A stretch of DNA of 64,000 nucleotides. Source: Amoebophrya sp. A120. Its lineage: Eukaryota; Protista; Dinoflagellata. The notes under the pieces are model-generated. The model did no database searches, was not told where the DNA came from, and saw nothing but the letters and a program-made list of their open reading frames with translations. The stretch is taken from assembly GCA_905178155.1 (NCBI GenBank), contig CAJINV010000003.1, positions 8,189,117 to 8,253,116 on the forward strand, given 5' to 3'. Below, one piece after another: positions 13,217-60,767 of this stretch; position 1 is the first letter of the stretch; each line of letters starts with the position of its first letter. A program made the position numbers and the translations under genes.

Positions 13217-16200
13217 ATGTCAGTGCAGGTGTCCGGCAATGCGCTGCTCGCCGCGAAGCGGATGGGAGTGTTGGGTGGCAGTACGCGAAGCAGCAAGGCG
13301 GCGACCGGAGCCGCGTCGGCACCGAGTGCTCAGCCAGAGCATGCCGAAGTAGTAGGAGAGGAACACCACGAGCCGGAGGTGCACGCCGAGATGTACGTGG
13401 ACGAAGCTTTTCGGTTCGCAGGCCCCAGTATCACACAGAAAAGAGGTAGCCAATTACGGTCGCATTGTTGATGCGCAATAAAACCTGAGAGTAAAGACAA
13501 ACAGATAAGGTTCGTTCTGTAAGAAAGTAGAACTAGAAGTACATCGAAGTAGAGTGCTGTGCAGCATTTCAAGTCGAAGATGTTTTTCAACGCATCGGCA
13601 TCCGAATCCGTGTCGTGCTACTGTTTATTTTCTGTGTGATACCCGGCACCAAGAAGCTTGCCAACGCGAAAAACATGTTTCGGCAACGGTGCTGGTTGCT
13701 GGCCTTCAAGTGCATGAAGCAAAAGTGGAAACTCGAGAAGGACGAGTTTCGCATCTCGGAGCAGTACGACACGATCAAGGAGCTGAAGCGGCAGAATTTT
13801 CTGACGAAGACGGAGGCGGATGCGCGGGTCGCGGACTACAAGAGCCAGATGCTGGTGGTTCGGGAGAACGAGAAGAAGGTGAACGAGGAGATGGCGCGGT
13901 TGCAGGAGCGCACGCTGCAGCTGGAGCAGATGCTGCAGGCGACCAACGACGCGCGGAACGCGCGCGAGACCGAGCTGGGCATGATGCAGTCGTCCATGGA
14001 CTCCCTGCTAAAGGACGCGAAGGAGGCGGTGCGGTTCGAGTTCCGGGAGCGGGAGAAGCAGATCGCGGAGGAGAACATGCACCAGCAGGAGATTCTGCGC
14101 AAGGAGGCGCTGGGCTACAAAAACAAGATCGTGGAGGTCGAGCGGGTCATGCGCAGCCGGCTGCAGGAAGAGCGGCTCAAGCTGGCGGAACAACTGCTGC
14201 AGGAACGCAAACTGAAGATCAAGGAGCGCATGCAGCGGATGACCATGGCTTTCCACATGGAGGGAAAGGATGCCGCGCACGATAAAGCTATGGCAGACGC
14301 GAAGGCGGAGAAGGATAAGGAGGTAGCTGCCGCGAAGGCGGCTGGCGGGGGCGGAAAGAAGGAGAAGAAAAAGCTGCAGAAGCAGGAACTCAAGGAGAGT
14401 CAAGTCAACCAAAATCCGGAGAAAAAAGAGGAAATTAAAGCTGCACCAGCGCCGAAGGGTACTAAGTCATTTTTTTTCGGATACCTTTTTGTTTGAGGAC
14501 CAAAGAAAGCAATGCCGGATATCGTTGATATGCTTTGTATAGTAAAGTCAGTGCGAATTTGATTCAGCATGACGACACGGCAGATCATCATGCTGGGGCA
14601 GATTCAAATCTACCTAGCTAAGTAGTGATGTACCCCAAGAAGTAGAAGAGAGGCACGTCGCGCCACCCAAAATTGCTATTTCTTTTTTTGGTTCTACTTG
14701 TTCTGTGTGCATAATTTGAAATACGAACAACAAGAAAAAACAAAAACAAATCCCACACCTACAGCTGCTCCCTCCGTGGACCAGGTGCCAGCGCCGGCTG
14801 CGACACTGGCCGAAGAGATTGCGCCACGGTTGACCGAGGAGGACATCCGCCACGCGATCGACGCGTGCGAGGAGCGTTTCGAGCTGGAACGGCAGAAGTG
14901 GCAGGACGAGCGCGCGGAGCTGCGGCTGATGTACGAGCAAAAGGCGCTGCTGCACGCGCAGCAGCAGTGCGACAAGGTGGCCCGCTACAACGAGCTGGCG
15001 GAGCGCAACCGGGAGCTGGAACGGTTGGTGGTGCGGTTCAAGGAAATCGAGCGGCTGCACATCATATGCATTGCAAAAATGTCTGGGTCTGGAAGAATGC
15101 ATGATTTGTCATGCATATTTCTCATGACCTTGACCCATGATGCCTGTAATGCTTGGTCTAGCATCGCAGACTTTTAGAGGGCTTCCTGATGCACCTTCCG
15201 CATGAGAAATGCCCTGTCCGTGTAGCAAAAACTGTGCCCGTCTTGCTGGTCACGCAATACAAATTTTTTTCGAGTCCAAAAACAGCATGACAAGTTGCAA
15301 TCTTCCAGACCCAGACATTTTTGCAATCCATACATCAAGCAGACCCAGAGCGAGAAAAACCAGCGGCTGCACACCCTGCACCGCGTCACGCGGATGGCGC
15401 AACTGGCGCGCGAGGAGAACCTCGGCCCACTGGAGGAAATCAAGGACGTGAAGGACCTCCGGGCGCGGGCGGAGGCGGTGGTGAAGCTAAAGGCCCTGGA
15501 GGACCCGACCCACCGCATCGCCCGGTTGATCGCCGGCGAGAAACGGATGCGGCATCCCACGCTGAACCCCACGCTCCTGGAGGCCCCGAAGACTATCAAA
15601 TGCAAAAATGTCTGGGTCTGGAACATTCTAAACTTGTGATGCTGTCTGTGGATTCTGAAAAAATTTGTATTGCATGAACAGCAAGAGGACTCCAGTTTGT
15701 GCTACGCGGAGAGGGCGTTTCTCATGCGGTAGAGGTATCAGAGAGCGCTCTAAAAATCTGTGATGCTACGGCATGCATCACAGACGTCATGGGTCATGGA
15801 AAATATGCATGACAAGTCTAGAAATCTTCCAGACCCAGACATTTTTACATTTGATAAAGACGGAGACGGAGCAACTGTGGGAGCTGTTCGGGTCGCTCCG
15901 CGAACTCGACCAATCGGCCGCGGACCTGCAGCACACGCCGCAGCGGGGCGCGTTTTTGGAGCCGGACCCGCCGGTGTACACCCCGGACTACGCCTTCGAA
16001 AAGCTCTACACCAAGTTCCCCCACAACCTGCCCGACATCGACGAATACAACACCGCGGTCAGCAAGCTCCGTCGCGCCAAAGACAAAATCGCCACCATGA
16101 ACCTGTTCGGCGGGGGCTCCTCGAGCCTGGCGGCAGGCGCCGGGGGCGAACAGGATAGTAGTACAACCGGGGCAGGCCCGAACGAAGTCGCCGCTCCTCC

Positions 16201-16306
16201 GACCGCAGGAACTTCCCTTCCTGCACTCCCGGAGCTTGTCAGTGAGGCCGCAGGAGAAGTTGTAGCGCCACCAGTAGACTCGGTTCCGCCCGCGGAGGCG
16301 GAGTAA
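13217..16306 (+). CDS. Coiled-coil hypothetical protein, 5 exons
   Basis: GT-AG introns 13446-13564 and 14459-14764 join ORFs in frame. Removing the introners at 15065 and 15594 gives ...ERLHIKQTQSEK... and ...EAPKTETEQLW.... E/K/Q/R-rich heptads. Confidence 0.8.
15065..15332. mobile_element. TIR introner, family A (268 bp), TSD CATCA
   Basis: Left TATGCATTGCAAAAATGTCTGGGTCTGGAAGA, right TCTTCCAGACCCAGACATTTTTGCAATCCATA; CATCA on both flanks; excision restores frame. Confidence 0.92.
15594..15856. mobile_element. TIR introner, family A, inverted orientation (263 bp), TSD AAGAC
   Basis: TATCAAATGCAAAAATGTCTGGGTCTGGAA...TTCCAGACCCAGACATTTTTACATTTGATA; interior resembles the reverse complement of the 15065 and 20099 copies. 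Confidence 0.92.
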
Positions 16307-20433: not shown

Positions 20434-22367
20434 AAGCTTCTGCGACTGCTACGCATGCAGTAATATTTTTAAAAGTCGAACAGGCTGTTCATCTTTTTCC
20501 TGTAAGATAAGTACGTACTTTGTACGTCGACGTCGTTGCAATTTGTGCGTATCTCACGTCGGTCAATGTTGCGCGCTAAGCGTCTCCGTTGCAGCAGTTT
20601 GTTTCGCCGCATCTGAACAATGGTACTTGAAGTAGGCTTTCGGGTGAGTACTATTCGTCTCCATGATGATCGAGGATCTTCATCTTTAGGTGTACAATAC
20701 CATTATGGCCCTGCTCATCATGATGATGAAGCGCTTTGTCGCTCCATCAAAACTCCTGCTGGGGGAGAAGAAATATCGCTGTACCACCAGTTACAGTTTC
20801 AACGACATCTGCGCACGCGGCGAGAAGAGCGCGTCTCCCGCAATTTACGGAGACGCCTGCTCTGGTCGTGGAGGTCTCGCTGATTCCAATTTTTTTCTTT
20901 GTAAGATTTGCATTTTCTGATGCATTCGCATTTGTTTTCTCGAGGTCGTCGTCATGCTCGACCAGACCCAGAGAGTGCCAGATCAAAGAGAACCAGGTAA
21001 ATGGTGGTATTCGTTGAAAGACCAAAATGCTATCAAGTTGTTTTGTACCTCTATCAAAAAATCATGTTGTGTCAATGAATGATGTTTCGACAACACAGTG
21101 AACAAACGCCTGATGAATGATAAGCATCCCAAAATTTTGATGTCTTCCTTTCTCCCGAAGCATTCTCTCCCGGTACAGATGCACGGGGGATCATGCTCGG
21201 GGTAAAGAACGCAAATATGACCTTACAATATGCTTGTACAACTTGTCATAGTGCGCACAGTTATATTTGAATGTGAATGATAATCTATCTCTGCGCACCA
21301 GAGTGCGCAGATTAGCATGCAAGTATGCACCGTCGTGCATGAAGAGATCTGTGTCAACCGTTCATCCGTGAACGTTTTTCAGTTGCGGTAGCTAGCTGGT
21401 CAACTTTAGCGATCACAGCAGTTGCCCCTCTTGTATGTGTACGCTGCGTTGTTCTACTGCGTAAGTACGCCATCGACGGCCACGGCTGTCGTTGTACGTC
21501 TTTTGCATTTTACTTTTCGTGGTCATTTGACTTTTTCTTTTTCACAGCCGCAGCACCAGCAGCTTCTTTCAGCTCCGCCTTTTTATATACTACGAGCAGT
21601 GATGGATCGTGTTTCCACAGCTTTGGTCGTGCGTTCCAGTAACAGCAGGAGATCATTTTGATTTTTCTTCTTGATGGTCATTTTATTTTTTTCGAACTTT
21701 TTGTCGCGCTCCTAGAGTTTTTTTGGTTCTTCCGAGCCAGGAGCCGTCTATTCGATCGATTGAGGAGCAAAATTTTTGTGCATGAAAACAATTATTGAAA
21801 TGTGAGGACGACGACGACGCCTTCCTCGGTGCATGTTATTCAGCACGTCTCAGGCAAGATTTTTTTAGTTTTCGAACATAAAAAGTAAAAGTAGTCGATT
21901 ATATTCCAAGGTCTACAAGGAGGTGATGTTGCCGTATTGACAAAGACTTCGTGTTTCTGTGTTTCCGAAAATAAACATGCAGCGCAACGGTGCAGTCATT
22001 GCGTCCTTGCAGACTTCCGCAGATCGGGGGCATTTGTCTACCGGTATGGTGCCGCAAGCGACAGCGAGAAGTCTACCAGTGTTTCGCTTTGCTTTTACCA
22101 CAGTGCTGCTTGGTCTGAGCTGCTCTTTTTTGCAACTCTGCGCAGGGGCACCTCTGATCCAGCACCCGCAAAGCCGGAAAAACACTGACGGTTTGGTTCG
22201 TTTGCTGCTTTAGTACTTGATTTAGGCTACACGTACAACTTACATAATATTGGCGCAGTGACTCTGTTATATATATGAAAATGAATGAGTCTGTGTGCAG
22301 TTTCTGAGTATGAGCATGAGATTACTCCTCGTCACCACGCTGGAGCGAGCCACAATGAAGATCGGTT

Positions 22368-25236
22368 ATGTCGAAAAACGTGCACACGACGCACACAGTG
22401 TGGAAAAGAGGCCGAAAAATGTATGAAACAATACTTGCAGGAGACACGGATTCGCTATTTGACGACCGGAGCGATAGCGATTCCGAGTATATCAAGCCAC
22501 CGTGCCGCGTGGCCCGAAATGGTGCGGCCTCTATGGAGCTGGATCCGCCGTTTGTATATTTTCTTATTTGAATGTTAGCATTTTTCTTCACGTTTGCAGG
22601 TAGGATTTCGTAGCGGGTAGACACCGACTTTGTTCGTGTTTTTCGTTTGAACGGTTTCCGCGTGCATCTCTCGCAGGCGTGGCGGTTTTACACGATGTCG
22701 CCGGGCTACAACGTTCTGGAGGATGCGAAAAGCCAGCACCTGTACTATATGGCCCGCTCAGGTGATGTTACAGGATCCGGAGCCTCTTTTTCTCCCCTTC
22801 AACGAACCCAGTCATTCGCAGGACGTGCATGACGATTTTTCTCACTTCGCTCACCTACAAGTAGTGCTCAGGTTCGACTCCCCTCTGGGATTTTACAGAG
22901 CAATATACAAGGCAAGCGGAGAAGATTTGTGACGCCAAACTGGCCACATCAGGATAGGCCAAGCTCTCCGTCTAGCATGACAGGTTTGGTAGACTGGAGT
23001 CTGGTCCTGTACAGTGTTGGCCCCAAACCTTGTCAAGCGTGTGAGTACGAGGATATCATTTTATGCCACACAAATCTCTGAAGTATTGCACCTGGAAGAT
23101 GAACAGTTGTGATTGTGACACCTGAGCAGGCCATATACTATCTGAGCGAGTTTCCCTCGGCCTACCGCGTCTTCACCAAGCTGCTGCACGGGGTCTCCAC
23201 CTATGCATTGCAAATATGGCAGCGTCTAGAGGAGTCAAAGTGCAGATGTTTGTCATGCAGGTGCTGTCACATGGACATGGTCCAAGGCAGAGCCTACAGC
23301 ACAGAGAGCTGTGCAATGCCTGTTACTCTGCATGAGAAATCCTCTCTCGCCGTGGCGAAAAATAGACCGCTCTTGCCACTCATGGATGACAGATTTTTGT
23401 GTGACGGACGGAGAGCAGCACAAATTTGCTCACTTCCAGAGGACCCGGACATATTTGCGTTTGATACCACCGGGGTGTTCGTGCTGGATAAAAATCGCCT
23501 CAACCAGCTGCACTTGGACGACGCCATGCAGAGCATGGCGGATCTGAGGATCGTGGATCGCGACCTTCCGGCAGCGCCATCTGGTACAACATCCGCACAA
23601 CTGATTGAAACGCACGAAGAGCAGCAGGGCGAACAACGCCAGGATGAAAAGGTTGACAGTACAACTAGCCAGCCAGCTCCAGAGCCGGAGGCGAACGACG
23701 GCCGACAAAAGTCTACTCTGTCGTCCTTGCTTTCCCGCAATATTAAAAGTACTGCCAGCACGACGACCACGCCAAATTCTACTACGCGGGCAGCTTCAGC
23801 ACACCACCGGCGCGATGATGAGGAAGATGTGCTCGGGTACTTGCGCGAGAATTTCATCGCCATTGAGCACTGGCTCCCCGGGTCCGCAAACATCGAGCAA
23901 AAAGTGGAAATGTGGCGCATGTTCCTGAATGCCGCGGTCGGAGCGGACAACAAGTTATCCGCAGCACTCGAACACAACGCGCTCGCGGAGATGCAACAGC
24001 CGAACCATCCGGCTATCCTCGGCTGCTCGGTGGAACAAGTCGAGGAGGCGTCGACCAAAGCCGCCGGCGTTTTTGCGGGCAGATCTACGGCTGTGGCGGC
24101 CGCCACACCACCCGAAGAACAAGAAGAAGCAGAACCAGAAGCGCAGCGCAAGACGGAGAAGGAAGCAGAAGGTAACGAACGGCAGCAAAATGTTGAAACA
24201 GGAGGCACGACCGACGAGGCCGCTGGTCACGTATTCAAGTACACACTTTGGATTGATCCGCGCCGCATGTCTATCCAAGAAAAAAACTGTGTTAGTGTAA
24301 GTCTTTTGGGAAAACAGCATCACAAGTTTGTCTGCCATGACAGGACAAACTTGTTATGCGCAGATACAAAGGGAAAACACGTAGGAAGCGAGCCGGTCAT
24401 GCATGTCGAGCATGACAAGTGTAACTGTTTGGCATTTTCTGCATCACAGATTTACACTTACACAGTTTTTTTTTGCATAATGTCCGACGACGGGTCCGGC
24501 TGCACGACCCGGACGCCCTCCATGCCCAGCCAGGAAAGTTGCGAAGACAATTACGTATGCATCGCAAATGTAAGTGTGATGTCTGCATGCATTGAAAAAA
24601 TACAAAGGTTTTGTGATGAAGCGGATTTCTGCATGATGAATGCAATTGCAAAGGGTTCAAACCCAGCCACGCTCATGCACGAGCATTGCTTCGGTGCGAC
24701 TGCTCCGCTTCGGGCCCTGAGGAAATCTGTTTTAGCCCCCGAAATCGAGTTTGGCACCGCAGTCTGGAAAATCCACATGATAGACGATGATGATGATGAC
24801 AAATTTGTGGTCGAAGGACCATCCCGAGGCTTTTTAAGGCGCAAGCGCAATGAAAATATTAATCGTATGCCCGTGCTTGGATAAGAACACTGGTGCACAC
24901 TCATGCAATTAGAGCCTCAAGGTCAACGTCAAGCCATGCTCACTTTTCAGATGCAGACCCAGAGATACACATTTAGGCATTGCATAGTGCGATGACGACA
25001 ATGACGGCGGATCTAGCAAGCTCTACCTCGGGATGACACCCGATATGTATTACGACGACGACAATTCCACGGCCTGTCAAGTGCCGTCTCGGCAGCAGTC
25101 GGCCACGGACGAGCGGAGCGAGGGTACTAGTACTACATTTGGAACGGCAGCGTGTGCCGCAGCACGACAAGATACGATCATGGACTCGGAAACTGTGGAG
25201 GACGCGGCTGCGAATAACAGTATAATAAATTCATAA
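22368..25236 (+). CDS. Hypothetical protein, multi-exon, interrupted by four introners (ends approximate)
   Basis: Removing the elements at 22748, 23202, 24272 and 24556 gives a continuous frame (SQHLYYLSEFP; GVSTGVFVL; PRRMSDDG; EDNY..DDDNDGG). Confidence 0.65.
22748..23135. mobile_element. TIR introner (388 bp), TSD TACTA
   Basis: TATGGCCCGCTCAGGTG...CACCTGAGCAGGCCATA; TACTA on both sides; frame restored. Confidence 0.88.
23202..23466. mobile_element. TIR introner, diverged family-A-like (265 bp), TSD CCACC
   Basis: TATGCATTGCAAATATG...CATATTTGCGTTTGATA; CCACC on both sides. Confidence 0.87.
24272..24479. mobile_element. TIR introner, family B (208 bp), TSD ATGTC
   Basis: TATCCAAGAAAAAAACTGTGT...ACACAGT-poly(T)-GCATA; near-identical to 59716-59924. 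Confidence 0.93.
24556..24986. mobile_element. Aged introner (431 bp), now bounded as GT-AG intron 24555-24987
   Basis: TATGCA...TGCATA termini, weak TIR, degenerate TSD TTACG/GTGCG; GT-AG removal is in frame. Confidence 0.7.
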
Positions 25237-25380
25237 ATTATCCCACTTTTCTTCCCTGACTTCTCGTAGCAAGGTCGTTTTACTTTATTACCTATCTTAC
25301 TTGATTTGATGAAGCTGCAGGAGTGCAGTGTTACTCCTTGGAGCTCCTGGCTGTCTTGGCTCTAAACGTGTAGCCGGAGC

Positions 25381-27199
25381 ATGGAAGAGCCTGCCGTGTA
25401 TCTTCGACCGAGACATCCAGCAATAGCAGTTCGCGCAGGAGGTTCTCTTTTTCCAATCTGTGTAGGTGACACTTCGACTTCGCTGAAGGAGGATCTCGAT
25501 GATGAATACGAGATTGTCGAACCTGAGAGCGTTCCTGTGGTGCCGCCGTTCCCCGCGCCGCCCGGATTCCGTCTGCCGCCCGGGTTAGAGAAGCCTGAGC
25601 ACCCCTCGAACCAGCAGATGAGACGTGGCATCGTGAGCCGTTTAGTGGGACGGCGCGAGCAGGACCACCGGACCGCCACGCAAACGGCGAGAACTACCAA
25701 GTCGGAATTTTACTCTGACACAGAATCTTCTGCTGCTGCGCACAACGTGATGAACCGTGATCGGGACAACTACTACAACAGCGACGAAGCTGCAAAGCAC
25801 GACGAACGCACCGCAGAGGACAAGTCCATCGACAGTGGCCGCGCGCTGGTTAGAACAAGCAATCGGGCTCCCCCGCAAAAGGATTCCGCCGCTTCTTGCT
25901 CCACCTGTCGGTCCGCTCCTTCGTCCCACGCGGACCTTCCTCCGGCTTTTCGAACCGTGTTTCTCTTCGTCGACGCCGCTGCCCGCGAGCTGTACGCCCC
26001 TTTCCCGGACCTCAGCCTAAATGAATTCGACGAGTGCGCGCAACCGCAGGTGACGCTGGGTTCCTCGGTGGTCGAGAACTTTCGCGCCGGGGTTACGCAC
26101 GGAGAACTGCTGACCATGGAGCAACGCGCCTTTGACTTCCGCGACGTGAAGGGCGTTGTGAACAGTTGGCGGGAGTTCCCCCATTTGGCTGCAATCACGC
26201 TCACCAGGGTCGGCGGCGTCGTGGGGACTACCGCCGCAGCCAATCTTGCGCAGGAGCAGGTGTGGAGCGTTCAGTTCTGGGCCTACCGCGGGCCGTTCAT
26301 CCAAAGTGTCAACTTGCAGTCCAAGATGTTTTATGCACTGCACGAAATATGTCTGGGTCTGGGAGTGTGCAAAGCTGTGACGCGTCCTACGGGTCGAACA
26401 AAAATCTGTCCCGCATGATTACCAAAAGTCGTCCATTGTCGACCGAGGTTAGAAGGAACAAAGAAAAGCATGATAAAGACGTAGACTGTACAGAATCTGT
26501 CGTGCTGGTTCCTGCATTTCAGACCAAACCTCACGGGGCATGGAAAACCTAAATGACAAACCTTGCCACCCTCCAGACCACGATATTATATTTGCACTTG
26601 ATATGTTTCTCACGGCCTATCACTGGCCACAGTTCGTGCACCGGGGGCTCACGGCCGGCCGGCGCACGCATCAGTTGCGTATGGACGACTTACTGCACGA
26701 CTTGTTACACAACGAGCGCCGAATCACGGTCGAGAAACGTCGCGTGCCGACGGAAAAAACGCAATTTCTGCAGACGGCAGTACATCCATATTTGCTTTTT
26801 TTATTGATACATAAAACATAAGAACGGCATGTGAATTGTGGGTAGTACTAGTAAATCTAGACTCGAGCAGCAACTTCTCTTGGGGCAAGAAAATATTAGT
26901 TGTGCTATTGCTATCAATCCTAGAAAAACCCTGCCTATCGTCGAGGCACATGATGTTATCATGGATCTACTTGCTCGTGCGGGCCCGCGTCCTTTTGCTC
27001 CGAGAGTCCACTTGCAATTTCGCTTCAGGTCACCGACCACACAGTTGTCCCTTGGGACCCACAGTCCATCGAGTTTCTCGGTTCGTTTCTGGAGTCTCAA
27101 GTTCATCGGCGAGAAGTGTGGAAGGTGAGCGCACAGATCGAGGGGCCTGGCTGGGTGCAGGTGCATGTGGTTTATCGGCTCCCCGACGAAAACTTTCTG
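25381..27199 (+). CDS. Hypothetical protein, about 3 exons
   Basis: ORF from MEEPAVY; removing the introner at 26332 gives SKMFLTAYHW; GT-AG intron ~26780-27028 leads to VTDHTVVPW...LPDETF-stop. Confidence 0.65.
26332..26603. mobile_element. TIR introner, family-A-like (272 bp), TSD TGTTT
   Basis: TATGCACTGCACGAAATATGTCTGGGTCTGG...CCAGACCACGATATTATATTTGCACTTGATA; TGTTT on both sides. Confidence 0.88.
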
Positions 27200-27502
27200 A
27201 AGCATCGCCCGGGCTACCGCAGCAGTAAGAACAAAGACAGGGTCTACTAGGATTTCGATTTTCACTTAGGTTGAAGACGAGAACGAGTACTTACTGTGGC
27301 TGTGACCAGCCGAACAACATCGGCGTCCGATGCAATGAGTGTCGCATAACTCCATCTCGAACTACAAGAGCAGACCAGTCCGTTTTGTTTGGTCGACCTT
27401 ATAATTTTCCCTTGGAAGAATAAGAAAGAAATCCACTTTACATGTTTGTATGTCTTCCATCAGTTATAATTGTTATACTCAGCTTTCTCTGTTACTGTTT
27501 GA

Positions 27503-28856: not shown

Positions 28857-28991
28857 TGGATCAGGGAATTACTCATCTTCAGGGAATTACTCATTTATGT
28901 GATTGGACCAGGGAATGGCATTCTGATGGATTTTTTTACTCATCTTCAGCGGGAGTTTGAGCTGTCGTGGACGAACTTCGTTTAAAAAATT
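28790..28991. repeat. Patchwork of local duplications
   Basis: 28922-28991 is a ~69-bp copy of 27953-28021; TACTCATCTTCAGGGAAT and GATTGGACCAGGGAA recur. Confidence 0.8.
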
Positions 28992-41060: not shown

Positions 41061-41310
41061 GCCGCCGCGGAGACGCGAGCACACGGCGCCAGGCCTCTGT
41101 CCGAGGCACTGGCGCTGTGCGGCAGGGCGCGCCCATACTGCCATTTCGTGCAGATCTGCGCACAGCAGCAGCACTACCTTGGCGCGCGTGTCCCGCGTCC
41201 CCACTTGCTGCTCGCGCAAGTGGGACTTGGGTTGTTGAGCGCGGCTTGCGGCCACGCCCCAATTGGGGCGGGGGGCCGCGTGGCGGAGTGCGGTAACGCG
41301 CGTCATCATT

Positions 41311-42550: not shown

Positions 42551-45533
42551 ATGATGCTCCCTCTTGTTTCCAGAGACCAGGATGCGAAGCGCGGTGCTAC
42601 TGAGGACGCAACCTTCGCGGTAGGAATGGCGACTTCAAATTACGCGAAGAACACGTCATCAATCCGGGAGTTTAATATTGCCGAGGATGCGCCGACCTCC
42701 CCGAAGGAGTCTCACAGTCGGTACGTGTCAAGAGCAACGAAGTTCGAGGGGCCTGCCCACGCAGTGTTGAGCACAAGTTCTGAAAATGCCTCTTCCTCCG
42801 AATCTTGTCGTACAAGATGCAGGAGTCGCAGAGCGAAGCTGCGCGGGTCGGCAAGATTTGTGCTCGCGTACCTCGCGCTCCAGACCTTCACAATCGGGGC
42901 TCCTCTCTACGGATTTTTGTCTGCGATCGGGAAGCTTGATCTGCCCCCGCGGGCCGAGAACGCCGACGTGCCCACGTACGCGGCGACCGTGTTTCTCACC
43001 ATGCTGCGGACGTCGCAGCTCGCCGCGTTTCCGGTCTCCTACCTGATTGACCTCGTGGGTGCGCGATTGGGAACCATGTTCGCATCCACCTTGTTTGTAT
43101 TAGGTGCGGTCTTCCTCGGGATTGCGGTTCGACTCGCGGTATCAACTGCAAAAATGTCTGGGTCTGGAAACTTGTGATGCTGGTTGGCGAATCAAGAGAA
43201 CGCCAGAAATGACGGCTCAGCATGACAGGTTTTTGAGTCGCTAGGTGTTGCCTATTCTGCATGAAAAACTGGGTTTTGGCATGACACAAAAGTGGTGCTT
43301 TTGGGCACCTTGCATGACAGACTTGATAGTCATGCTAGCAGAGCATGCCAAACCTGGCATTTTTCCAGACCCAGACATTTTTGCAATCCATACGCGGCCT
43401 CGGAGTGGCAAGCGGACCCGGACCCCGGCCAGCGACCCTTCTTCCTGCTGGGGTCCGCGTGCTTTGGGCTGTCCGCCTGCTTCCAGATTGTCAGCGTGAT
43501 GATGACGCTGCGGACCGTATTCAAGCACGTCATGTCCGAGTTTTCCATCACGCTGTTGAATGGGTGCTACGACAGTTCCGCAATAATGTTCACCATTGTT
43601 GGCGTCTGCAGCACCGCGGCGGGGCGGACCGGGTTTTTCGCCATTCTTGCCGACACCGGTGTTGACCACGCGGCCGACAGCACAAGTGGGAATAAAACTT
43701 CTGATGACCACGGGGGAGCTCCTGCAGGTGTCGCCGAGCAACACCATCAACCTCCGCTGGGAGCAGTCATCAGCGCTACAACGCGTGGTCCGGAGCGACA
43801 CCTTGTTTTGTCTGGTGATGAGCAGGGCTTTTACGCAGCGGAGTCTTTCGGTGTTGGACTCTGGGTCTATGCTTTGTTCGGCGTTGCGCACCTTCTCTTT
43901 ACAGCGTGGCTCTATCCGTCAGAAATGAGTAGCACGCAACAAGGCGGTAGTTTGAAAACACGACTACACGCGGCTGGTGATCATGCAATGGACCTGGCGA
44001 CGCCACTGCTTGTGGAGGACAGTACTATGTCAGGTTCATATGAACGACAATTGCCATTGCGACGCGCACCACGCGAGGAAGAGCGTGACGAGGTGAACGT
44101 GAAAATGGTGGGCCACGACGGAGAACCAGGACAAGAACAACGTCGGCCTGTCATGATTGCCGCCTCAGGTGGTTCCCTTATTTCCGCGGAATCGAGACGA
44201 AGCTCCAGCTCGAGCTCTGCAAGTACGCGGACGGGCCACGGTGAATTCGTGGACAACATGTCGGGGTCCCTCTCTGGATGCTCGGCTCGAACAAACAGTG
44301 ACGAGCCTGGTAGTTGCTGCAGCTCCACGTTCTCCACGCCCGGACCTGCGCGTGCGATCAGTAAGATTGCGCCGGACAAGGTGGCAGCAGCCTCCACGTT
44401 TGGACACGATTTCATGAACATGGCACAAGACGACGAGGACAACGACATGATAATTAGCAAGAACGAAGGCGTGTCTACTTCACTGTCCGCGCCGCAGCCA
44501 GACCCAGAGGACCCTTCTCTGTTGTTGACTACGAGAACAATAAATGCGGTCGTGCGGCAAAAGGAACAACTACCCGAGGAGGAGCAGGACTACCTACCGC
44601 TTGAGAGCGGGCACCCCATGCGCAGTTGGGTGTCGTTACCCGGTAAGAAGGACGTATCGCGGAGCTTCGTCGAAGTCATGGTAGACCGCGACTACGTGCT
44701 ATCGATTCTGTGGTTTGCCGTGCAGTTTCAAAACTTCACGAACTACCTGACCCAAATGCCGGACATCTTGAGCCCGCCAGTACTAAATCTGAGCGGTTGG
44801 TTCTACCCGTGTTCGGTGTTTACTGCGTTCTTGCTCGGCACGCTGTTCAACTACCTGCACAACCCGAGTTATGTGGTCTGCATCACCACCTGTCTTGGAG
44901 TACTTTTTCAACTGCTAGTTTACACCCTGTGCTGCAGCGCGACGACCTCGAGATCAACGCCGCCCGCCATCGCAGAAGCGGCAACAAGAACCTCTGCACC
45001 TACATCTGCTTCCGAAGCCTCGCTGCGCGAAACTCCTGACGATTCTCCAAATTATGGGGTTGCTCCTGGAACTGCTGATCTCCACGGTTTTTCCGTGCTG
45101 CTGCTACTGCCATTCTTCCGATCGGGGTTGTTTACCACCATGTGGATTTTTTGGCCCAGTTTGTGGAAGGACAGCACGCACATCGGCGCCATGTACGGCT
45201 TTGCCTCGCTGTTTGCGTTTGCGTTTTCCAGCTTCTTGATTGCTTTCGTGCTCATGTCGCGTCACACCATCGCGGAAGACGGTACCAAAACGTACTCACC
45301 AGAAAAGGCTGCCAGTATGAACTGGCAGTGGTTTATGAAAACGAAATCTCGCGTCACAGTCACATCCGCGACGTTTTGTAAGGCGTTTTGCCTTATAAAA
45401 CGTCTCCGATGTGACTGTGACGCAAGATTTCGCTTTCATATGGTTTCGCATCTACGCCTCTGTGTCCATCTTCTACTCGATCTACGCAGTGGTCACGCAT
45501 CGCTACCGCGAACAGGCACGCAAACGGTCGTAG
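42551..45533 (+). CDS. MFS transporter, SLC43 (LAT3/4)/FMP42/ApiAT-like
   Basis: Multiple TM helices; YLIDLVGAR loop; ITLLNGCYDSSAIMF resembles the SLC43 motif. Removing the introners at 43140 and 45334 restores frame and a final helix WFRIYASVSIFYSIYAVV. Confidence 0.82.
43140..43392. mobile_element. TIR introner with family-A TIRs (253 bp), TSD CGCGG
   Basis: TATCAACTGCAAAAATGTCTGGGTCTGGAAA...TTTCCAGACCCAGACATTTTTGCAATCCATA; CGCGG on both sides. Confidence 0.93.
45334..45440. mobile_element. Minimal hairpin introner (107 bp), TSD TGGTT
   Basis: TATGAAAACGAAATCTCGCGTCACAGTCACATC...GATGTGACTGTGACGCAAGATTTCGCTTTCATA; the interior is also self-complementary. Confidence 0.92.
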
Positions 45534-48377: not shown

Positions 48378-51300
48378 ATGGATTCTCCATTGGGGCCGTT
48401 TCCTGGGGTGAGCGCTACCGGCACTGCTCCTCACGAGCAACAGCGACATGTTGACATCAATACCCTCGATATGCTGCACCCATCTCAATTATCTGCTGCG
48501 CGACCACCTGCAGACACGAGTAGTCTTAGTTTTGGTAGAAATTATATCACTACCTCCTACGCGGGCGGCCCCACGTCGAGCACGATTGCTACTGGCGTCA
48601 CGTCCCCGTATGCAAATGCAATCCCGCAGCAGCACACCGGCGGAGTCGCCCTAGCGGGAGATAGTACACTCACACCGTGTGCGGCACGAGACCCGGCGAC
48701 TTTTTCTACCCCGACGACAACCACGGTGGCGCAACAGAAAATCAACCTCCTGTCCTCCGCGTCAAACTTTAATCTTGCCCGGAGTCCCACCCCTTGCTCA
48801 GCCTCGTCTGCGGCCATGAAGTTCTGGGTCAATAACCCTTCTAGGGCGTCTACAGCCAACACCCGTTCGTGTAAAGGATCGAGTTCGACGGGCTGCACGA
48901 CGAGCGCGGCAACGAGCGTGATGACCTCTTCTACGACTTCTGTATCCACTGGCCTTCCCGCAGCAAGTTCCCAATCAGTACCGGAAGCCCCACCGGCTCG
49001 TAACTACCAACAGCACAACTCGCTCGTTGTGCCGGCGCCGCCGATTCCGACACCACCCGGCGTACAACAACTGGGGCGTCCATTAGCACAGGGATTGGCT
49101 ATAGCGGAGAAGTTTGCGACCTTGGAGGACTTCTATCCGAGTGCACAACTCCTCCTCCTTTGAATGGCATGAACAGCCTCATATATCATGCATATGACAT
49201 TGACTCATACTCTATCTTTCTTTTTCACGCGGCCGCCCGGACGTCCTGGTGCCGGTAGATTTCCGAAAAAAAGTATGCAAAAGGTACATCGCCGAATGAT
49301 AATGAAAAGGGGACGAGAGCAGCTGAGTTTGACTTTCTGATGCATGAGGAAATTTTAGGGGGAGGAGGACTTGTGCACTTGCACAACTTTTTGGCGCATA
49401 TGTGGAGCGACCTGGATGTACAAAAACGAGGAACCTGGATGAGCTTCGAGGACCCCCAGCTAGTCAACTCCTTTTTGCTCGCTGCCTACACGCGCGGCAT
49501 TGCAGATGAGCCTTTTCCTCACACACCAGTATTAAGCCCATTATTGGAGCAAGATATAATTACAGATAGTTGTTCTACTAAGACCGCTGGCGCTAATAAC
49601 GCGCAAGTAGAAAGCACGACAGACGGCAGAGCTGCATCTGCGTCGGGGCCAAGCCAGCAATCGACCCTTGGTACAATCTTCGACGGCACGGAAGCACATG
49701 ATGTGTCCGCCACCTCCGCGTCCGGAAATCTTCAACAGGGGCGCAGAGCTGGAGGCCGGGGTGGTTCAGGTGCACCGAAGTGCCCGCTGCTGGAGAATAT
49801 GGTCGTGCATCTGTACACCGTGCCAGATCCTCATGATGGGAGTGCAACGATTCAACGTGGTGATGCGGTTGCACTTGCACCCCCATCTTCTCTCGACGCA
49901 GCTGCTCCATTTACAACGCCTCTGACGGCGTTTGTGACGCAGTTGACCCGAGAGCGCGGGACGAGCACATCGCTGAGAACCGCGGCGGGCGGCGCAAATT
50001 TTAATTCCGCAGCGGGGCAGCAGGTTGACATCGAGGATACGGCGGAGTTCGTTTCGCGGATGAGCAGCAGGGTTGCGAAACTGTCATGGTCCTGCGAATT
50101 TTTGGGCTCGAACTTCGAGGAAGCAGTGTCGCACGGGCTCCCCGACGTACTGCAGTCGACGAATCGCCGGAAGCTGCAATGGAACCACTGGCACAGCGTC
50201 TTCTCCGCACAGAAGCCGCTGTATTCGTGGCACCGGCTCGAGCGGGCGGTGTGCAAATTGATCGAGCAGTCGTGGATGCATGGGTGCTTCGCCATCGACG
50301 GCCGCTTCAACTACGGGACGAGTTTCCGCCGCTCGTACCCGAAACGCCGTCCCGGGCGCCGGGCAAAAAAAGATCGAGTTCAACAGACGAGACAGTTGCA
50401 GCAAGATAGCAATATTCCGGAGTCGCATCGCTCGAGCGCTTTGCATTCAAACCTAAACAGCCATGAACAGCATGCTCCGTCGCCGGGGTTCTCGCCGTAC
50501 CAACAGAGCAGATCCGACCAATCGCAGCGCTACGACTCGCTGCCAGAGTCAAACGCAAGTACTATTAGACACTACCCCCAAACGCCCGAAGACAATAATA
50601 TTCCGGACCGCGCAAGCAGTTTTTATTTGTCAACCAGTACTTCTGCAACGACCGGTGCAGGAGGTGCTCAGGCTCACAATAATCTGGGCCGATTTGTTGA
50701 TCCTCTCTATTTCGAGGGCAATGCTAGTACAACAGCAACGTCGCTGCCTGCGACGTCAAATGTAAGTAGCAGTTTCTATTCCTCTCCACCGCCTGTCGTG
50801 CAACACGGTCCGCCCGTCCCGACACCGCCTTACTTTGCCGCTCGCAGTCGCCCGCTGGCGGGCGGGACATATAATCTGGAACAGCATGCTCAGCTGCAAC
50901 ACTTGCCACAAAGCGTCCCTTCGAGCAGACTGAGTCAACAGCACACCGGTTTTCCTTATCAGAATCAAGAGCTGCTGAACCTGCAAATGCAACTGCAACC
51001 GGGAACAAGATTTCCCTCTCAACAACCACATCCTCAGCACTTTAACACTGCGGCAGCGCCCCAGCACTCTGGAATTGTTCAGGCCCCCCTTGTGCATCAC
51101 AACTACTACCAGCAAACGAACCTCTCCAACATGGTTCAAAAAGACAATAACTCACAGCAGTGGGTGGTCGGTGCCGCGAGCAGTTTTGATACAACCGTTC
51201 CCAGCATGATGTGCAAAAACTACACTGACGTTAAGGAACAAGCGCGCCCTACGATTTGTGCACAAGGCGTAGACTTTCCACAAGCTTCCCCTTGTGTTAA

Positions 51301-54300
51301 ACCGGATACCCCTGATGTTAAAATTTGCGAAAACAGCACGCGGCGTGAGATGAAAGCTGCCGCAGCTCGAAATTCCGGCCACCGGCTTCTGGAGGTGTTT
51401 TTCAACAAGGATAAGACGAACGCCGACAAAAATGCAGAAATCCAGCGTCCGAAGTTGCAGTTCCGAACGGAAGGGGACAACGAGGACCTGGTCCAAATGT
51501 GGAAGCTGCACACGAAAGGGGTATCCTGAGGAAAAATCCCCCCTCCCCATATTCGAAAGGCCACGCTTGATGCGCGATCTGTGCACGACACAAATCGCGA
51601 GGGACTCATGAAAGCGCAATTGGCTGCGCTTGTTTGGGCTTCTAGTAGTTCTAGAAGTCTAGCGGTTCAGCATGATACAGATTCTTGCTCCTGTTGTAGG
51701 ATAAAACGCATTTAAAGAAGATGGCCGAGCCCGTGCTCGCTTTCGCTCTCACCTCCCAAGTATGCAGGGCAGTAGAGGGACTTTTTGCGTATACAAATCT
51801 AATCGGCAACACAACTGTTTCTGCCGCTTTATTTTCAATATGGGGAGGGAGGGTTTTTCGTCATGATAAGTGGCAAAATTTGACCACGAGAAGAGGCTCG
51901 CGGACATGCGGCTGGAAAACTTGACCTGGCGACTGTGGTACAAGGCCCGAAGGCATGAACAGCTAACGTTTTTGGCTGACCCGTTGCCCTCGTTGCTGCC
52001 AATCAGGGCCGGTAGGCCTTCCTCGCGAGGAGGGGGCACATATGAACAAGATCTCCGAGAGGAAACACGAATCTTCGAAGACCCCAGTTCTCTCAGCGGA
52101 ATTAGAACCGCCAAGCGGAACGGCCGTGGACGCGTTCGAGAGCGCGACGAGTTCTTTGCCAATCACCAGGCTGACATTGAGGTGGACTCTACCGGGTCAG
52201 TGTCCGTGTACAATTTTGGCCGGAGCCACAGTGCCGAGGGGCGCGTCTTCAATTTGTGGCGCCGGAAGCACAAGCGGCGGATCCTGCGGCGCTTGCTCCA
52301 AGAGGACGTCGAGGTAGAGAGAGTGGCCCAACAAGAAGAAGTTAATAACACGACTGCTGCAGCTGCTGGTTACTCTTCCGGTTCGGGTTGTTCCGCCACG
52401 TCTTCCTCTTGTGAGGAAATGCTATCCGATGTTGCAAAAAATACGGCAACCTGGAACGGTTCTGCCGTTGTTCCAGTGCTGTCATCTTGTTCAACAGCTG
52501 GAGGTCTTCATGCAGCCACTGTTCCTAAAGACGAACACGATCGAGGCAGTGGCAGTGCAGACCACCATTCCACCTCGCGTAGCGGCACTGCCACGGTGTC
52601 CTCTCCACGTTTGCTCCCTACGAAGCAGCAAGAACTATATCAACCGTTACAACACGATACTGGATCCTCTTCACTAGGTGCGCCGCCCGCGGGACGAGCG
52701 AACCCGAACATGGGCCGCGATCTTGCTACTGACGCTCTATTCCGCGTGGTTTTCCGCGATCTTGCTACTGACGCGGGGTTTTCCGCGTGATTTCTGTTAG
52801 GAAATCGCTCGCCCCTGGGCTTTCCGCGTTTCTTTATAGGAAATCTCTTCCTTAGGAGCCGGCCGCTGATCTCCGCGAAAAAAACACGTAGTGGAGGCAA
52901 GCTCCTTCTGATCTTCACTGCGAAACAGAGCGGAGACGAGCTCGGTGGCTAAGGTTTGGGTGGGATAGGGTCTGTGATAAGTATCGGGGTTTCTCCTTTG
53001 ATATGGATCAGACGGTCCGCGATGTCGGACTTTTCTCCTTTGATATGGATCAGACGACTTTTCTCCTTTGATCTGGTAACCAAAGGAGAAAAGTCCGGAC
53101 TTTTCTCCTTGCAAAGGAGAAAAGTCCGCTGGATTGATACCAGAGCGAGCAGCTCCTGGTCCAAGTCCTTCTGTTTTTGCTTCACATCCCTCTGCTTTAG
53201 CATCAAATCCTTCTGCTTTAGCATCAAATCCTTCTGCTTTAGCATCAAATCCTTCTGTTTTAGCATCGATTCCTTCTGCTTTAGCATCCGGTCCTTCTGT
53301 TTTAGCATCAATTCCTTCTGTCTTAGCATCGATTCCTTCTGTTTTTGCATCAATTCCTTCTGTTTTTGCATTTTTCTACATATCACGCGTGCTGTGATAT
53401 CAACAGCACAGTCGACTTTTCTCCTTTTCTTCTTTGATATCATGTGATATCACGTGATATCAAAGGAGAAAAGTCTTTTTTCAAAGTTTAAAGACCCAAG
53501 GCTGTTTATAAGCAAGCTCTGCGATTTACTGTGTTACACATTTCAAACAGTATCAAGATTCCGCCGATTTACTGTGTTACACATTTCAAACAGTATCAAG
53601 ATTCCGCTGCGGTTCGTCAGGTTTGCGACTTAGTGAAACAGCAGGCATTGTCCCTCACAAGGTCGAAAGCATCGCTGTGACCTTGGCCCGCTCTATTGTT
53701 TCGCTGACACATTCTGCCGCCGCCCGGTCTATCAGTCACTGGAGTTCTCAATCAGGTCCGCGACATGTAGCAGCTTGCCTTCTTAGCTATTCCAGTGAAC
53801 TGAAGCAGCCGCAGCTACGTGGAGGCCTTGTTCTTTTTGCCTGACACGAAAATGAAAACGCAATAGGCGTGACAGGTAGCCGCGGCTCGAAAAAAGTTCT
53901 AGCCTGCCCTTGAAAAAATACGCTATTTTCGATGTCGTGTGTAACTGTAACACTTTTTTCCTTCGATACCTGGTGCGCCGCCCGCCGGACGACCGAACCA
54001 AAACATGGGCCGCGATCTTGCTCCTGACGCTCTATTTACTGGATCCTCTTCACCTGGTGGTGTGCTGCCCGCGGGACTAGCGAACCAGAACTATGGCCGT
54101 ACTATCTGCATCTTTTCAAAGTGGATAAAAAAACTTCAGGGTGTCCGCGCATAGGCATTGCGCTGCTTGACCTTTGTCATGTGCCTTTGTCACGCATAAA
54201 ATGCATTGGGGCCATGCGTATCAAGTTATCTAGCTAAGAAGCCGGCCATGTCGCCGCGGCGAGGACTACGCCGCGCACGGACTCGGGTCATTCTTGAGTC

Positions 54301-58294: not shown

Positions 58295-59309
58295 CAGAAG
58301 GTGAAAATCAAAACCAAAAAAGCAGTTGCATGTACTAGCCAAAACGGCATCGAGAATGTAATCGAACTTTGTTGCGCTGGTCCTTGTAGTACTATGTTCG
58401 CTGCGAGAGCGACAGGAAAGATAGAAGCTGCAAGAATGTGATGAAACCAAGTTGAGGAAACAACCTCCTTACGATAAGATGTACGATTGCAATTTTTGGC
58501 GCGATTCCCAGATTTTCTTGAAAAGAAAAAATATACTACATTGTCACTAGATGTTGAAATCAAACTCTTTTGTAATCGCTACAAGGCGTGAAGCTTAAAA
58601 CTAGCGCGAGTCGATGCAGAACGAGCGGTTTTTCAGGAATACCACGTACATTTTTTGTTGCTCCGAATCGCCAAGGAAAAATGTCCATGGTCCAAACACG
58701 ATGATACGTGCACCAAGTAGTCCCAAGCATATTAGACATACTTCGCATTACCCTACCCTACGAAAAAAAAGCTGCCATATTTCCCAATATCATGAACCCC
58801 CTAATTGCTTTGATGCCCCTCGCTTTTCATATGGAGTATTCCATCAGAAAGATACTAAGAAGAAATAAGAAAGTTGCGGCTACAGTGGCTAGTCAAGGAA
58901 CTTCTGAGTTTTGACTTTCTGACACTTTTGGCGATAATACCAAGAAAACTCTTTACGTTACTATTCCTGCCATCACATGTTGATCTATCGTGACAACGAA
59001 GATGGTTGGAACCTCCAAATAACGGGACCCGAACATGTTCTGTGTGTCAAGGTTCCCTGTGATCATAAGTTGCGAAGTTTTGACCTTCAGAAGCTCCAAC
59101 CATAGAGAACTCTTGCCCAACACAAACACGCCTTTGCCCTGGAGTTCGTTGGCGAACTACAATGTTGTCAGGCATTTACACTTTATTCGGTCGTAGCAGG
59201 ACTTTATTTTTTGAAAGAAGTTTCATTCTTTGACTTTACTGTTACTAAACATTCTCAAAGCTAAATACAAGAAGTCTGACTCTGAAAGGGAACGGCAAGC
59301 TGATCTCCC

Positions 59310-60767
59310 ATGTCGCAAATGTTTGGCTCACCGCGCGGTCGTTTGCCCTTGGATGTGTTGCACCAAGGGCTTACGAACCAGTTAGAGGCACTCGGCTTCG
59401 AAGCGCCAATTAGTGACGCGGAGTTGCCTTTTTTTGCCGTGATTCTTTCTATCGGTTTTTTCCTCTCGTTCTTCGGGCACAAGTTGAAAAAAAGCGTTTT
59501 GTTTGTTACCGGCGCCTTGCTTCCGGTGTTTCTGTACACGGTCAATTTCCTGCCGGAAAACCCACCACTGAAAATTATCATCGTGGTCGTGCTCGGGTTA
59601 TGCGCGGGCATTTTCTTTGTGAAGTACCCGAAGTGTGGCCTGGCCGGTGTGGGCATCGTGTGGGGGGCTGCGATGGGGCGGTTTTTGTTCTTCTTGCTGC
59701 AGTCCATCCTGAAGGTATCCAAGAAAAAAACTGTGTTAGTGTAAGTCTTTTGGGAAAACAGCATCACAAGTTTGTCTGCCATGACAGGACAAACTTGTTA
59801 TGCACAGATACAAAGGGAAAACACAGAGGAAGCGAGCCGGTCACGCATGTCGAGCATGACAAGTGTAACCGTTTGGCATTTTCTGCATCACAGATTTACA
59901 CTTACACAGTTTTTTTCTTGCATAGAAGGACCAGGTATTCACGCCCAACAAGGAAGCGATCAACGTGGGATGCATCGCCGTCTCCGCGACCGCGGGCGGT
60001 CTTCTGGTCGCTGGCTGCTTATCGCAAGAAAAAACTGTTTCACTGTGAACTTGTGATGCAGAGACCGGAGCACCAAAGGGCTTGTCTTGCTACACCTGCA
60101 TAGAACGTTGGAGTTTCAACCGTGGTTTGCCTTATGGGAAATGCGCGCATGGCAAATTTTCCGTGTCATGTGTAACAAACTTGTAAATGCAGATCTTGCA
60201 AAAAAATCACCACAGTGAAACAGTTTTTTCGTGGGATACTGTTTTAGCAAGCTGTACTGCTTGGTGATCCCCTTCGTCGGGGCGGTTTTGGGGGCGGACG
60301 CGCTGGCACACGTCCTGATCATCGTGGCCCACAAGTACTGGAAGCGGATCCGCGGGTACTTTCCCTTGGAGACACCCCTGCTGATCAACCACGACCTGGA
60401 AGATTCGGAGTCGCTGCACAAGTACCTGGAAGAATTGAAACGCTCCGGAGAACAGGTGTTCGAAGACGTCTCCAGTCTATTCGGTGCGGGGGACGAAGCT
60501 GGTGCTGCAACCTCGTCGTCCTCCTCCTTCCGCGATTTTCTACACCAGGCGGAAAAAAGTTTGGTCAAGTACCGCTACCCCTGGGGGATTTGGGCGGCCT
60601 GTTTCGTGTTCTGTTTCATCGTTGGCGTGAAGTTGCAGTGCAGGGAGTACCGCAAAGAGAAACGGGAAAAGCAGCGGCTGCACCTAGCCGAGGAATCCAG
60701 TGACGAGGAGCCTCTATTGGCGCATCCGGCCTACCGTTCCCGCCCCATCGGGCAGCGCTTGGTATAG
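59310..60767 (+). CDS. DUF4203/TMEM198-like multi-pass membrane protein (start uncertain)
   Basis: IGFFLSFFGHKLKKSVLFVTGA pattern and several TM helices; removing the introners at 59716 and 60020 gives a continuous frame. Confidence 0.72.
59716..59924. mobile_element. TIR introner, family B (209 bp), TSD GAAGG
   Basis: Near-identical to 24272-24479; the flanks give GT-AG. Confidence 0.93.
60020..60238. mobile_element. TIR introner, family-B-related (219 bp), TSD CTGCT/CTGTT
   Basis: TATCGCAAGAAAAAACTGTTTCACTGTG...CACAGTGAAACAGTTTTTTCGTGGGATA. Confidence 0.9.

What the first reader, a model, noticed from the sequence alone, without database searches (positions are those of the whole stretch)
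15065..60238. Exon-invading TAT...ATA / 5-bp-TSD elements acting as introns (multi-family introner system)
Seen: 14 complete elements starting at 15065, 15594, 20099, 22748, 23202, 24272, 24556, 26332, 43140, 45334, 49134, 51522, 59716 and 60020. They fall into several interior/TIR families but all share TAT...ATA termini (one ACA), TIRs and a 5-bp TSD. All sit in coding sequence of 7 genes and their removal always restores the frame; I found no intergenic copy. Known: introners are described in Micromonas and Aureococcus, and IR/DR intronic elements with non-canonical splice sites in Amoebophrya. Inference: one transposase superfamily mobilises all of them and the host splices them out.
Basis: partly seen in the sequence, partly recalled or inferred. 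Interest (0 to 1): 0.9.

Follow-up and report, generated by a model that had tools for sequence, protein, structure and literature searches.

The report
Known Amoebophrya introners with five-base duplications
These are small transposon-like inserts in the genes of the marine parasite Amoebophrya A120, already published as its introner elements; each carries inverted ends and a five-base target duplication, likely-RNA contigs lack them, and they are likely cut out at a fixed distance from their paired ends rather than at normal GT-AG splice sites.

Summary
The 14 elements are real; I found two more (13429, 63471) and one solo end. Two window proteins are 100% identical to records named Amoebophrya sp. 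A120, and the ends fit the published A120 introner signature (TAT + 7 nt + AAA; Farhat 2021), so the system is already known. Likely-RNA contigs and two annotated proteins lack the element plus exactly 5 nt. In a related assembly, a duplication-blind test gave an exact 5-nt duplication in 96 of 110 family-1 copies and never 6 nt. Copies lie in both orientations, and GT-AG is possible in only 4 of 152. Corrections: 6 genes, not 7; 4 of 14 duplications are imperfect; three elements leave an open frame if retained; an intronic copy exists in the relative; A120 also has a published Mutator-type introner family. Refinements not found in my five literature searches: a uniform 5-nt duplication across families, a cut that keeps upstream duplication positions 1-4 (one site), and a simulation suggesting the published splice-site variability is mostly boundary ambiguity. 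No transposase was found, and the splicing machine is untested.

The parts
13429..13641 (.).
   Evidence: contig piece ends at 13427; P0001 fits only registers 4-5
15065..15332 (.). Family-1 element, 268 nt, duplication CATCA
   Evidence: absent from P0001
15594..15856 (.). Family-1 element, 263 nt, duplication AAGAC, opposite orientation to 15065 and 20099 in a + strand gene
   Evidence: contig piece starts at 15857; P0001
20099..20360 (.). Family-1 element, 262 nt, duplication GATGG
   Evidence: contig record 12: 205 unshown letters equal the exon length expected for element+5 removal
22748..23135 (.). Element with divergent ends (no A-run), 388 nt, duplication TACTA
   Evidence: absent from P0002
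23202..23466 (.). Diverged family-1-like element, 265 nt, duplication CCACC, weak predicted hairpin
   Evidence: contig piece starts at 23467
24272..24479 (.). Family-2 element, 208 nt, duplication ATGTC, 97% identical to 59716
   Evidence: contig record 13 arithmetic
24556..24986 (.). 431-nt element, duplication TTACG/GTGCG (mismatches at positions 1 and 3)
   Evidence: P0002 fits only registers 3-5; record 13 arithmetic
26332..26603 (.). 272-nt element, duplication TGTTT, weak predicted hairpin
   Evidence: contig piece ends at 26325
43140..43392 (.). Family-1-ended element, 253 nt, duplication CGCGG
   Evidence: no RNA evidence
45334..45440 (.). 107-nt palindromic element, duplication TGGTT; the gene frame stays open if it is retained
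   Evidence: no RNA evidence
49134..49385 (.). 252-nt element with TAT..ACA ends, duplication ACTTC/ACTTT (position-5 mismatch, synonymous by inspection)
   Evidence: no RNA evidence
51522..51868 (.). 347-nt element, duplication AGGGG/AGTGG
   Evidence: no RNA evidence
59716..59924 (.). Family-2 element, 209 nt, duplication GAAGG; the only one of 16 that can read GT..AG (register 4)
   Evidence: no RNA evidence
60020..60238 (.). 219-nt element, duplication CTGCT/CTGTT
   Evidence: no RNA evidence
63471..63706 (.).
   Evidence: no RNA evidence
62932..62957 (-). Solo right end of a family-1 element, no partner end found
13217..16306 (+). Host gene for P0001 (674 aa, no Pfam hit): three elements and, by inspection, one GT-AG intron
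21977..27250 (+). Host gene for P0002 (938 aa, no Pfam hit): five elements plus GT-AG introns

Best explanation
These are the published introner elements of Amoebophrya sp. A120: short inserts with TAT...ATA inverted ends and a 5-nt target duplication, likely non-autonomous DNA transposons moved by an integrase-type (Ginger/IS3EU-like) transposase encoded elsewhere, which likely-RNA contigs and annotated proteins lack together with exactly 5 nt and which are likely removed by the host spliceosome at a register predicted to be set by the element's ends rather than by GT-AG. Steps: (1) insertion with a 5-nt staggered cut at near-random sequence [duplication shown, enzyme inferred]; (2) transcription in either orientation [both orientations shown]; (3) the symmetric ends present the same signals both ways: a terminal stem, a 5' start N-UAU(C/G) resembling GUAU, and a U-run 11-15 nt inside the 3' end [sequence shown, role inferred]; (4) a cut 1 or 0 nt before TAT and 4 or 5 nt after ATA, so one duplication's worth is lost and the original coding sequence is restored [net length shown; register shown at one site and bounded at a second]; (5) the executor is a relaxed spliceosome [inferred, about even odds].
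For: Identity: P0001 and P0002 are 100% identical and named A120; 24 of 32 window ends and 442 of 518 ends in the relative read TAT+7+AAA (the first four bases were required by my finder), matching Farhat 2021. Removal: X5 contigs splice the GT-AG intron 17746-17986 and skip elements, with 205 of 205 and 304 of 304 unshown letters as predicted for +5; 8 of 8 junctions match annotated proteins; 5 of 5 exonic elements in the conserved part of the relative's RPB1 align gap-free at +5 and with a gap at +2 or +8. X1 contigs carry 13429, 22748, 23202, 24556 and 26332 intact. Duplication: 96 of 110 exact at 5 nt, 1 at 4, 0 at 6, flanks not used in the search; over all families 277 at 5, 4 at 4, 0 at 6 among 603 pairs that include internal sub-pairs. 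Orientation 18 same / 24 opposite and 18/12. GT..AG at any register: 4 of 152 and 1 of 16; duplication composition is flat. Shared inner motif TGT(C/G)ATG in 234 of 259 elements, 10.5 vs 1.6 per kb. For the spliceosome: 83 of 89 proteins found and U1 not detected; tunicate precedent (abstract).
Against: No transposase among 93 locus proteins or 23 further proteins scanned; Farhat 2021 found none in A120 and argued against transposase mobilisation. IS3EU/GingerRoot make 6-nt duplications. Sequence indifference at both cut sites has no spliceosomal precedent that I read of. No excess of G at duplication position 5 (81 of 249 vs 70-80 at other positions). 23202 and 26332 fold no better than shuffles (z -0.7, -0.2) and 4 of 16 lack terminal TAT:ATA pairing, yet 23202 and 26332 appear removed, so a strong hairpin is not required. 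X5 is only guessed to be RNA, the element joints themselves were not displayed, and X1 may be the window's own source. The register at 13429 needs the annotated protein as well, since the contig end alone also fits element+2.
Confidence: 0.5

Rival explanations
1. Same elements and same net excision, but done without the spliceosome: the paired ends guide an endonuclease and an RtcB-type ligase joins the exons, a precise counterpart of animal SOS splicing or of euglenid nonconventional intron removal.
For: Both orientations are used and no dinucleotide rule holds; 14 of 16 elements fold with z <= -2 and 12 of 16 pair TAT with ATA; SOS splicing is triggered by inverted-repeat pairing; euglenid introns leave as circles without lariats (review passage).
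Against: SOS splicing leaves indels and is only partly in frame, whereas every junction checked here is exact; two weak-hairpin elements still appear removed; presence of AKAP17A, CAAP1 or RTCB in A120 was not tested.
Confidence: 0.35
2. The shared ends reflect selection by the host excision machinery, not one transposase: unrelated transposon families were filtered to those with TAT...ATA ends and a compatible duplication length.
For: Interiors fall into many clusters (56, inflated by sub-pairs); Gozashti 2025 assigns A120 introners to several classes, including a Mutator family; coding enrichment (249 of 331 vs 1084 of 2940 random sites) could be survivorship.
Against: Duplication length is a property of the transposase and is 5 nt in every larger cluster; the terminus-blind scan found no second class of ends; families share an inner motif.
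Confidence: 0.12
3. The elements are lost at DNA level in the expressing stage, or the skipped forms come from DNA rather than RNA.
For: X5's type is a guess; joined forms in other runs were not available; no stage-matched DNA was examined.
Against: The same X5 contigs also lack GT-AG introns; X1 contigs hold five elements intact at even depth; a published RNA-seq-supported intron set exists; transposase excision would normally leave both duplication copies (established knowledge).
Confidence: 0.03

Closest known systems
Amoebophrya sp. A120 introner elements (Farhat et al. 2021, PMC7789003)
   Same: Same organism name on the window's proteins, same TAT+7+AAA ends, direct repeats at the boundaries, hairpin, non-canonical junctions, similar size.
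   Different: The paper gives 3-5-nt repeats and variable splice sites, calls families strain-specific and rules out transposase mobilisation. Here the duplication is uniformly 5 nt, the variability looks like boundary ambiguity, and family 1 is shared (up to 95%) with a related assembly.
A120 introner family 38 (Gozashti et al. 2025, PMC12130899)
   Same: Supplement row notes 5-bp TSD and TA/TA termini and labels it Ginger; it has inverted ends and acts as an intron.
   Different: About 810 nt with integrase-like ORF homology and 5 copies. The window's elements are 107-431 nt. Most other A120 families there are left as superfamily unknown with automated TSD calls of 2-6 nt. I could not compare sequences with fam38.
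IS3EU/GingerRoot and Ginger2/TDD DNA transposons (Kojima and Bao 2023, PMC10045372)
   Same: TA..TA ends, occasionally TG..CA (IS3EU/GingerRoot); 4-5-nt duplication (Ginger2).
   Different: IS3EU/GingerRoot duplicate 6 nt; Ginger2 ends are TGT..ACA (recalled); no transposase was seen here.
SOS splicing (PMC12779559)
   Same: Removal of inverted-repeat DNA transposons from mRNA without GU-AG.
   Different: Imprecise and shown in animals; removal here appears exact. Its factors were not tested in A120.
Euglenid nonconventional introns; Fritillaria non-canonical introns; Micromonas/Aureococcus introners
   Same: MITE-like origin with inverted ends and target duplications.
   Different: Euglenids use CAG/CTG stems and purine/pyrimidine junctions; Fritillaria keeps AG-AC/AT; Micromonas and Aureococcus elements use canonical sites.

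Membership tests
Amoebophrya A120 introner elements | Found in Amoebophrya sp. A120 | tested here: met
   P0001 and P0002, 100% identity, named A120 by their sources
Amoebophrya A120 introner elements | Inverted repeat starting TAT, 7 variable nt, then at least 3 A | tested here: met
   24 of 32 window ends; definition
Amoebophrya A120 introner elements | 3-5-nt direct repeat at the exon/intron boundary | tested here: met
   5 nt in 16 of 16, 10 perfect
Amoebophrya A120 introner elements | Removed from transcripts at non-canonical sites | tested here: met
   Likely-RNA contig pieces for 7 of 9 elements laid, exact arithmetic for 3; 15 of 16 cannot read GT..AG. The seven elements from 43140 on have no RNA evidence.
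Amoebophrya A120 introner elements | Repeated in the genome | tested here: met
   Families 1 and 2 repeat in the window and draw very high summed contig depth; eight elements are singletons in my sample
IS3EU/GingerRoot | TA..TA (occasionally TG..CA) termini | tested here: met
   31 of 32 ends TAT, 1 TGT; definition
IS3EU/GingerRoot | 6-bp target duplication | tested here: not met
   0 exact 6-nt repeats among 110 and among 603 pairs
IS3EU/GingerRoot | Integrase-related DDE transposase of that clade | not testable with these tools
   No autonomous copy found; whole genome not available
Ginger2/TDD | 4-5-bp target duplication | tested here: met
Ginger2/TDD | TGT..ACA termini (recalled, not read in a call) | tested here: not met
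   1 of 32 window ends and 2 of 518 relative ends are TGT
SOS splicing | Inverted ends able to pair | tested here: met
   Predicted folding: 12 of 16 pair terminal TAT:ATA, 14 of 16 have z <= -2
SOS splicing | Excision at multiple sites leaving indels | tested here: inconclusive
   All junctions checked are exact, but contigs drop rare forms; synonymous-mismatch test inconclusive
SOS splicing | Needs AKAP17A, CAAP1, RTCB; independent of the spliceosome | not testable with these tools
   No A120 genome or experiment available
Micromonas/Aureococcus introners | Canonical splice sites carried or co-opted from the duplication | tested here: not met
   GT..AG possible in 1 of 16 and 4 of 152

The most novel reading that the evidence does not exclude
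The tens of thousands of TAT...ATA introners of A120 and its relatives are one integrase-type transposon lineage with a strict 5-nt duplication, and the host removes them with a dedicated, precise, spliceosome-independent cut-and-ligate system that measures from the paired ends in a single register. The reported unprecedented diversity of splice sites would then be one rule seen through alignment ambiguity.
Probability: 0.3. Interest if true: 0.8.

Novelty: already known. Interest (0 to 1): 0.33.

Why it matters
The phenomenon is striking but was described in 2021 for this organism. What remains open is how these introns are cut out and what moves them. This check narrows both questions. A uniform 5-nt duplication with TA..TA ends says which transposase class to look for. 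Elements whose two duplication copies differ are natural markers that read out the cut position from existing RNA-seq. If the cut is fixed and needs no GT-AG in either orientation, A120 is a natural test case for structure-guided mRNA splicing, now that SOS splicing is known in animals.

Tried and rejected
No RNA holder was listed as such for the stretch. X9 and X10 raw reads gave 61 and 3 partial reads, all on family-1 elements, and say nothing about junctions. The 23-nt end motif found nothing in viral contigs. Search for an autonomous copy: 7 end-paired elements of 457-2459 nt in the loci; the longest, L063:476-2934, carries an ORF with no Pfam hit, so no transposase. Rfam found nothing in 12900-43900. 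I first read Farhat's Table S4 (top A120 sites all N-T at the 5' end) as showing a cut 1 nt before TAT. I rejected that: Gozashti's fam1 row has N-T at 67% of 5' ends and A-N at 65% of 3' ends, and a motif-seeking placement within a perfect 5-nt duplication gives 74% and 70%; this assumes fam1 has such ends, which I could not see. A test of whether both duplication copies are under coding constraint was inconclusive: 11 of 24 mismatches synonymous, against 0.29 neutral and 0.37-0.45 for a fixed cut (136 elements passed the frame filter). The longest-open-frame test of exon preference is weak (195 of 220 vs 1608 of 2141 random). Two look-ups of earlier scan findings returned nothing.
Full report
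Observation. All 14 listed starts carry TAT, an inverted partner end and a flanking 5-nt repeat. Ten repeats are perfect and four carry one or two mismatches. A blind scan found 13 strong pairs against 0-2 in each of 10 shuffles and added two elements, 13429 and 63471; a solo end lies at 62932-62957. All 16 lie in + strand reading frames. Ten would shift the frame if retained and four more contain an in-frame stop; 23202 and 24272 do neither, and the gene frame also reads through 45334.

Identity. Two unbroken exons each returned one protein, 100% identical and named Amoebophrya sp. A120. Farhat et al. 2021 (PMC7789003; I saw the abstract, passages, sections 10, 12 and 16 and supplement passages, not the figures) define A120 introner ends as TAT, seven variable bases and at least three A, with 3-5-nt direct repeats, and count 29,850 of them. 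Twenty-four of 32 window ends fit exactly. The finding is therefore a local sample of a published system.

Removal from transcripts. I laid 4 of the 11 listed runs on 12900-27200. X5 is only guessed to be RNA, but its record 11 joins 17745 to 17987 across a GT-AG intron. Record 12 leaves 205 letters unshown and record 13 leaves 304, exactly the exon lengths expected if 20099, and 24272 with 24556, are removed with 5 nt each. Pieces also stop or start at the edges of 13429, 15594, 23202 and 26332. The joints themselves were among rows not displayed, and 15065 and 22748 were not seen. X1 contigs hold five elements intact, though X1 may be the window's source. The annotated proteins match element+5 removal at 8 of 8 junctions. 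The seven elements from 43140 onward have no RNA evidence here.

Register. With a perfect repeat the cut cannot be placed; mismatches can place it. At 13429 the contig keeps the upstream base at position 4 and P0001 fits only registers 4-5. At 24556 P0002 fits only registers 3-5. So the upstream copy is kept through position 4 at one site, and position 5 is open. Published tallies do not settle it. Gozashti et al. 2025 (PMC12130899; passages, section 6 and 56 of 58 A120 rows of supplement file 8; two supplement files not searched) list N-T at 67% of 5' ends and A-N at 65% of 3' ends for fam1. Choosing the most GT-AG-like boundary inside a perfect 5-nt repeat gives 74% and 70%, GT 31% vs 26%, AG 31% vs 25%, TA 3% vs 4%. 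I infer that much of the reported splice-site variety is placement ambiguity; this assumes fam1 has TAT ends.

A related assembly. The family-1 end motif hit 129 held loci (559 kb) of one assembly; the scan covered 24 of 64 parts and the loci were selected by that motif. One ORF is 95% identical to an A120 protein and 1 of 7 clusters found held an A120 member, so this is a close relative, not shown to be the same strain. Without looking at flanks, 96 of 110 family-1 pairs have an exact 5-nt repeat, 1 has 4 nt and none has 6. Over all families, 277 of 603 pairs are exact at 5, 4 at 4 and 0 at 6; the denominator includes internal sub-pairs. A terminus-blind scan gave TAT with 5 nt as the top class (256 of 455); the other listed classes looked like sub-pairs or extensions of the same elements. 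The finder gave 334 elements against 1 in shuffled loci; 249 of 331 sites look coding against 1084 of 2940 random sites. In RPB1, 5 of 5 exonic elements in the conserved part align without gaps only at +5, a sixth in the divergent tail could not be aligned, and one copy sits inside a GT-AG intron.

Splicing signals. Family-1 copies lie in both orientations relative to the gene (15594 against 15065 and 20099; 18/24; 18/12). GT..AG is possible at any register in 4 of 152 and 1 of 16, and base composition of the repeat is flat. The ends are symmetric, so either orientation offers a stem, a start N-UAU(C/G) and a U-run near the 3' end (496 of 518 ends have at least 3 A at positions 11-15). Fourteen of 16 window elements fold with z <= -2, but 23202 and 26332 do not and still appear removed, so end sequence may matter as much as pairing.

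Mechanism. Shown: anatomy, 5-nt duplication, net removal of element+5 nt, orientation independence and no GT-AG requirement. Inferred: transposition by an integrase-type transposase in trans, and excision measured from the ends. TA..TA ends fit IS3EU/GingerRoot but those duplicate 6 nt; Ginger2 duplicates 4-5 nt (PMC10045372, passages). Gozashti's fam38 is annotated 'Ginger, 5-bp TSD, TA/TA termini' and has integrase-like homology, though the main text says it lacks Ginger termini and TSDs. Their fam65 is Mutator-like, so one superfamily cannot cover all A120 introners. I found no transposase. For the executor I put a relaxed spliceosome at about 0.5: excision is exact, the spliceosome is nearly complete with U1 undetected, and tunicates give a precedent (PMC13326754, abstract only). 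A nuclease-plus-ligase route gets about 0.35, from SOS splicing (PMC12779559, passages; it does not mention Amoebophrya) and euglenid introns (PMC11282704, passages).

Novelty. Already known. Searches showed no paper stating a uniform 5-nt duplication for all TAT families, a fixed register, or a link to SOS splicing. The library lacks most subscription journals, Roy et al. 2023 was not read, and Farhat's figures S19-S25 were seen only as legends (S19 shows a 5-bp example), so these refinements may be partly in print. PMC12005148 (passages) adds nothing on this. Interest 0.33: a known phenomenon with an open mechanism that the mismatched duplications make easier to test.

Noticed in passing
window 52658-55921: About 3.2 kb between two copies of a 36-nt direct repeat (52706-52741 and 55885-55920) appears to interrupt the long gene that starts near 48285; it contains a 21-nt tandem repeat ORF on the - strand and short palindromes.
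   Followed up: no
window 62885-64000: A 28-nt direct repeat (62885-62912 and 63973-64000) precedes the solo family-1 right end; possibly a tandem duplication of about 1.1 kb running past the window end.
   Followed up: no
window 27828-28991: 342-aa ORF with a WTPGH motif resembling retrotransposon RNase H (resemblance recalled; no Pfam hit), with a 70-nt direct repeat at 27953-28021 and 28922-28991.
   Followed up: partly
window 1-318 and 33026-33466: Dispersed GC-rich repeat with internal palindromes, two copies 80-98% alike in parts.
   Followed up: no
window 39730-42090; L028:928-2434: Complex GC-rich tandem repeat with a 75-90% identical relative in the second assembly; its ORFs have no Pfam hit.
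   Followed up: partly
window 45657-45906; L050:10306-10557: Intergenic stretch 81% identical between the two assemblies, probably another repeat family.
   Followed up: no
L063:476-2934: 2.46-kb element with family-1 ends and a perfect 5-nt duplication that carries a 415-codon open frame with no Pfam hit; looks like captured cargo or a nested insertion.
   Followed up: partly
L035:8533-8772: An element inside a GT-AG intron of RPB1, 19 nt or so from the donor site; shows that copies are not confined to exons.
   Followed up: yes
loci L001-L129: Insertion phase is uneven (60/45/31 for phases 1/0/2), and 9 of 13 position-5 mismatches have G in the upstream copy; both are post hoc and unexplained.
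   Followed up: no
window 1751-6503 and 17210-18314: A kinesin-domain gene and a short-chain dehydrogenase gene with GT-AG introns and no element; the long ORFs I took for genes all lie on the + strand.
   Followed up: partly
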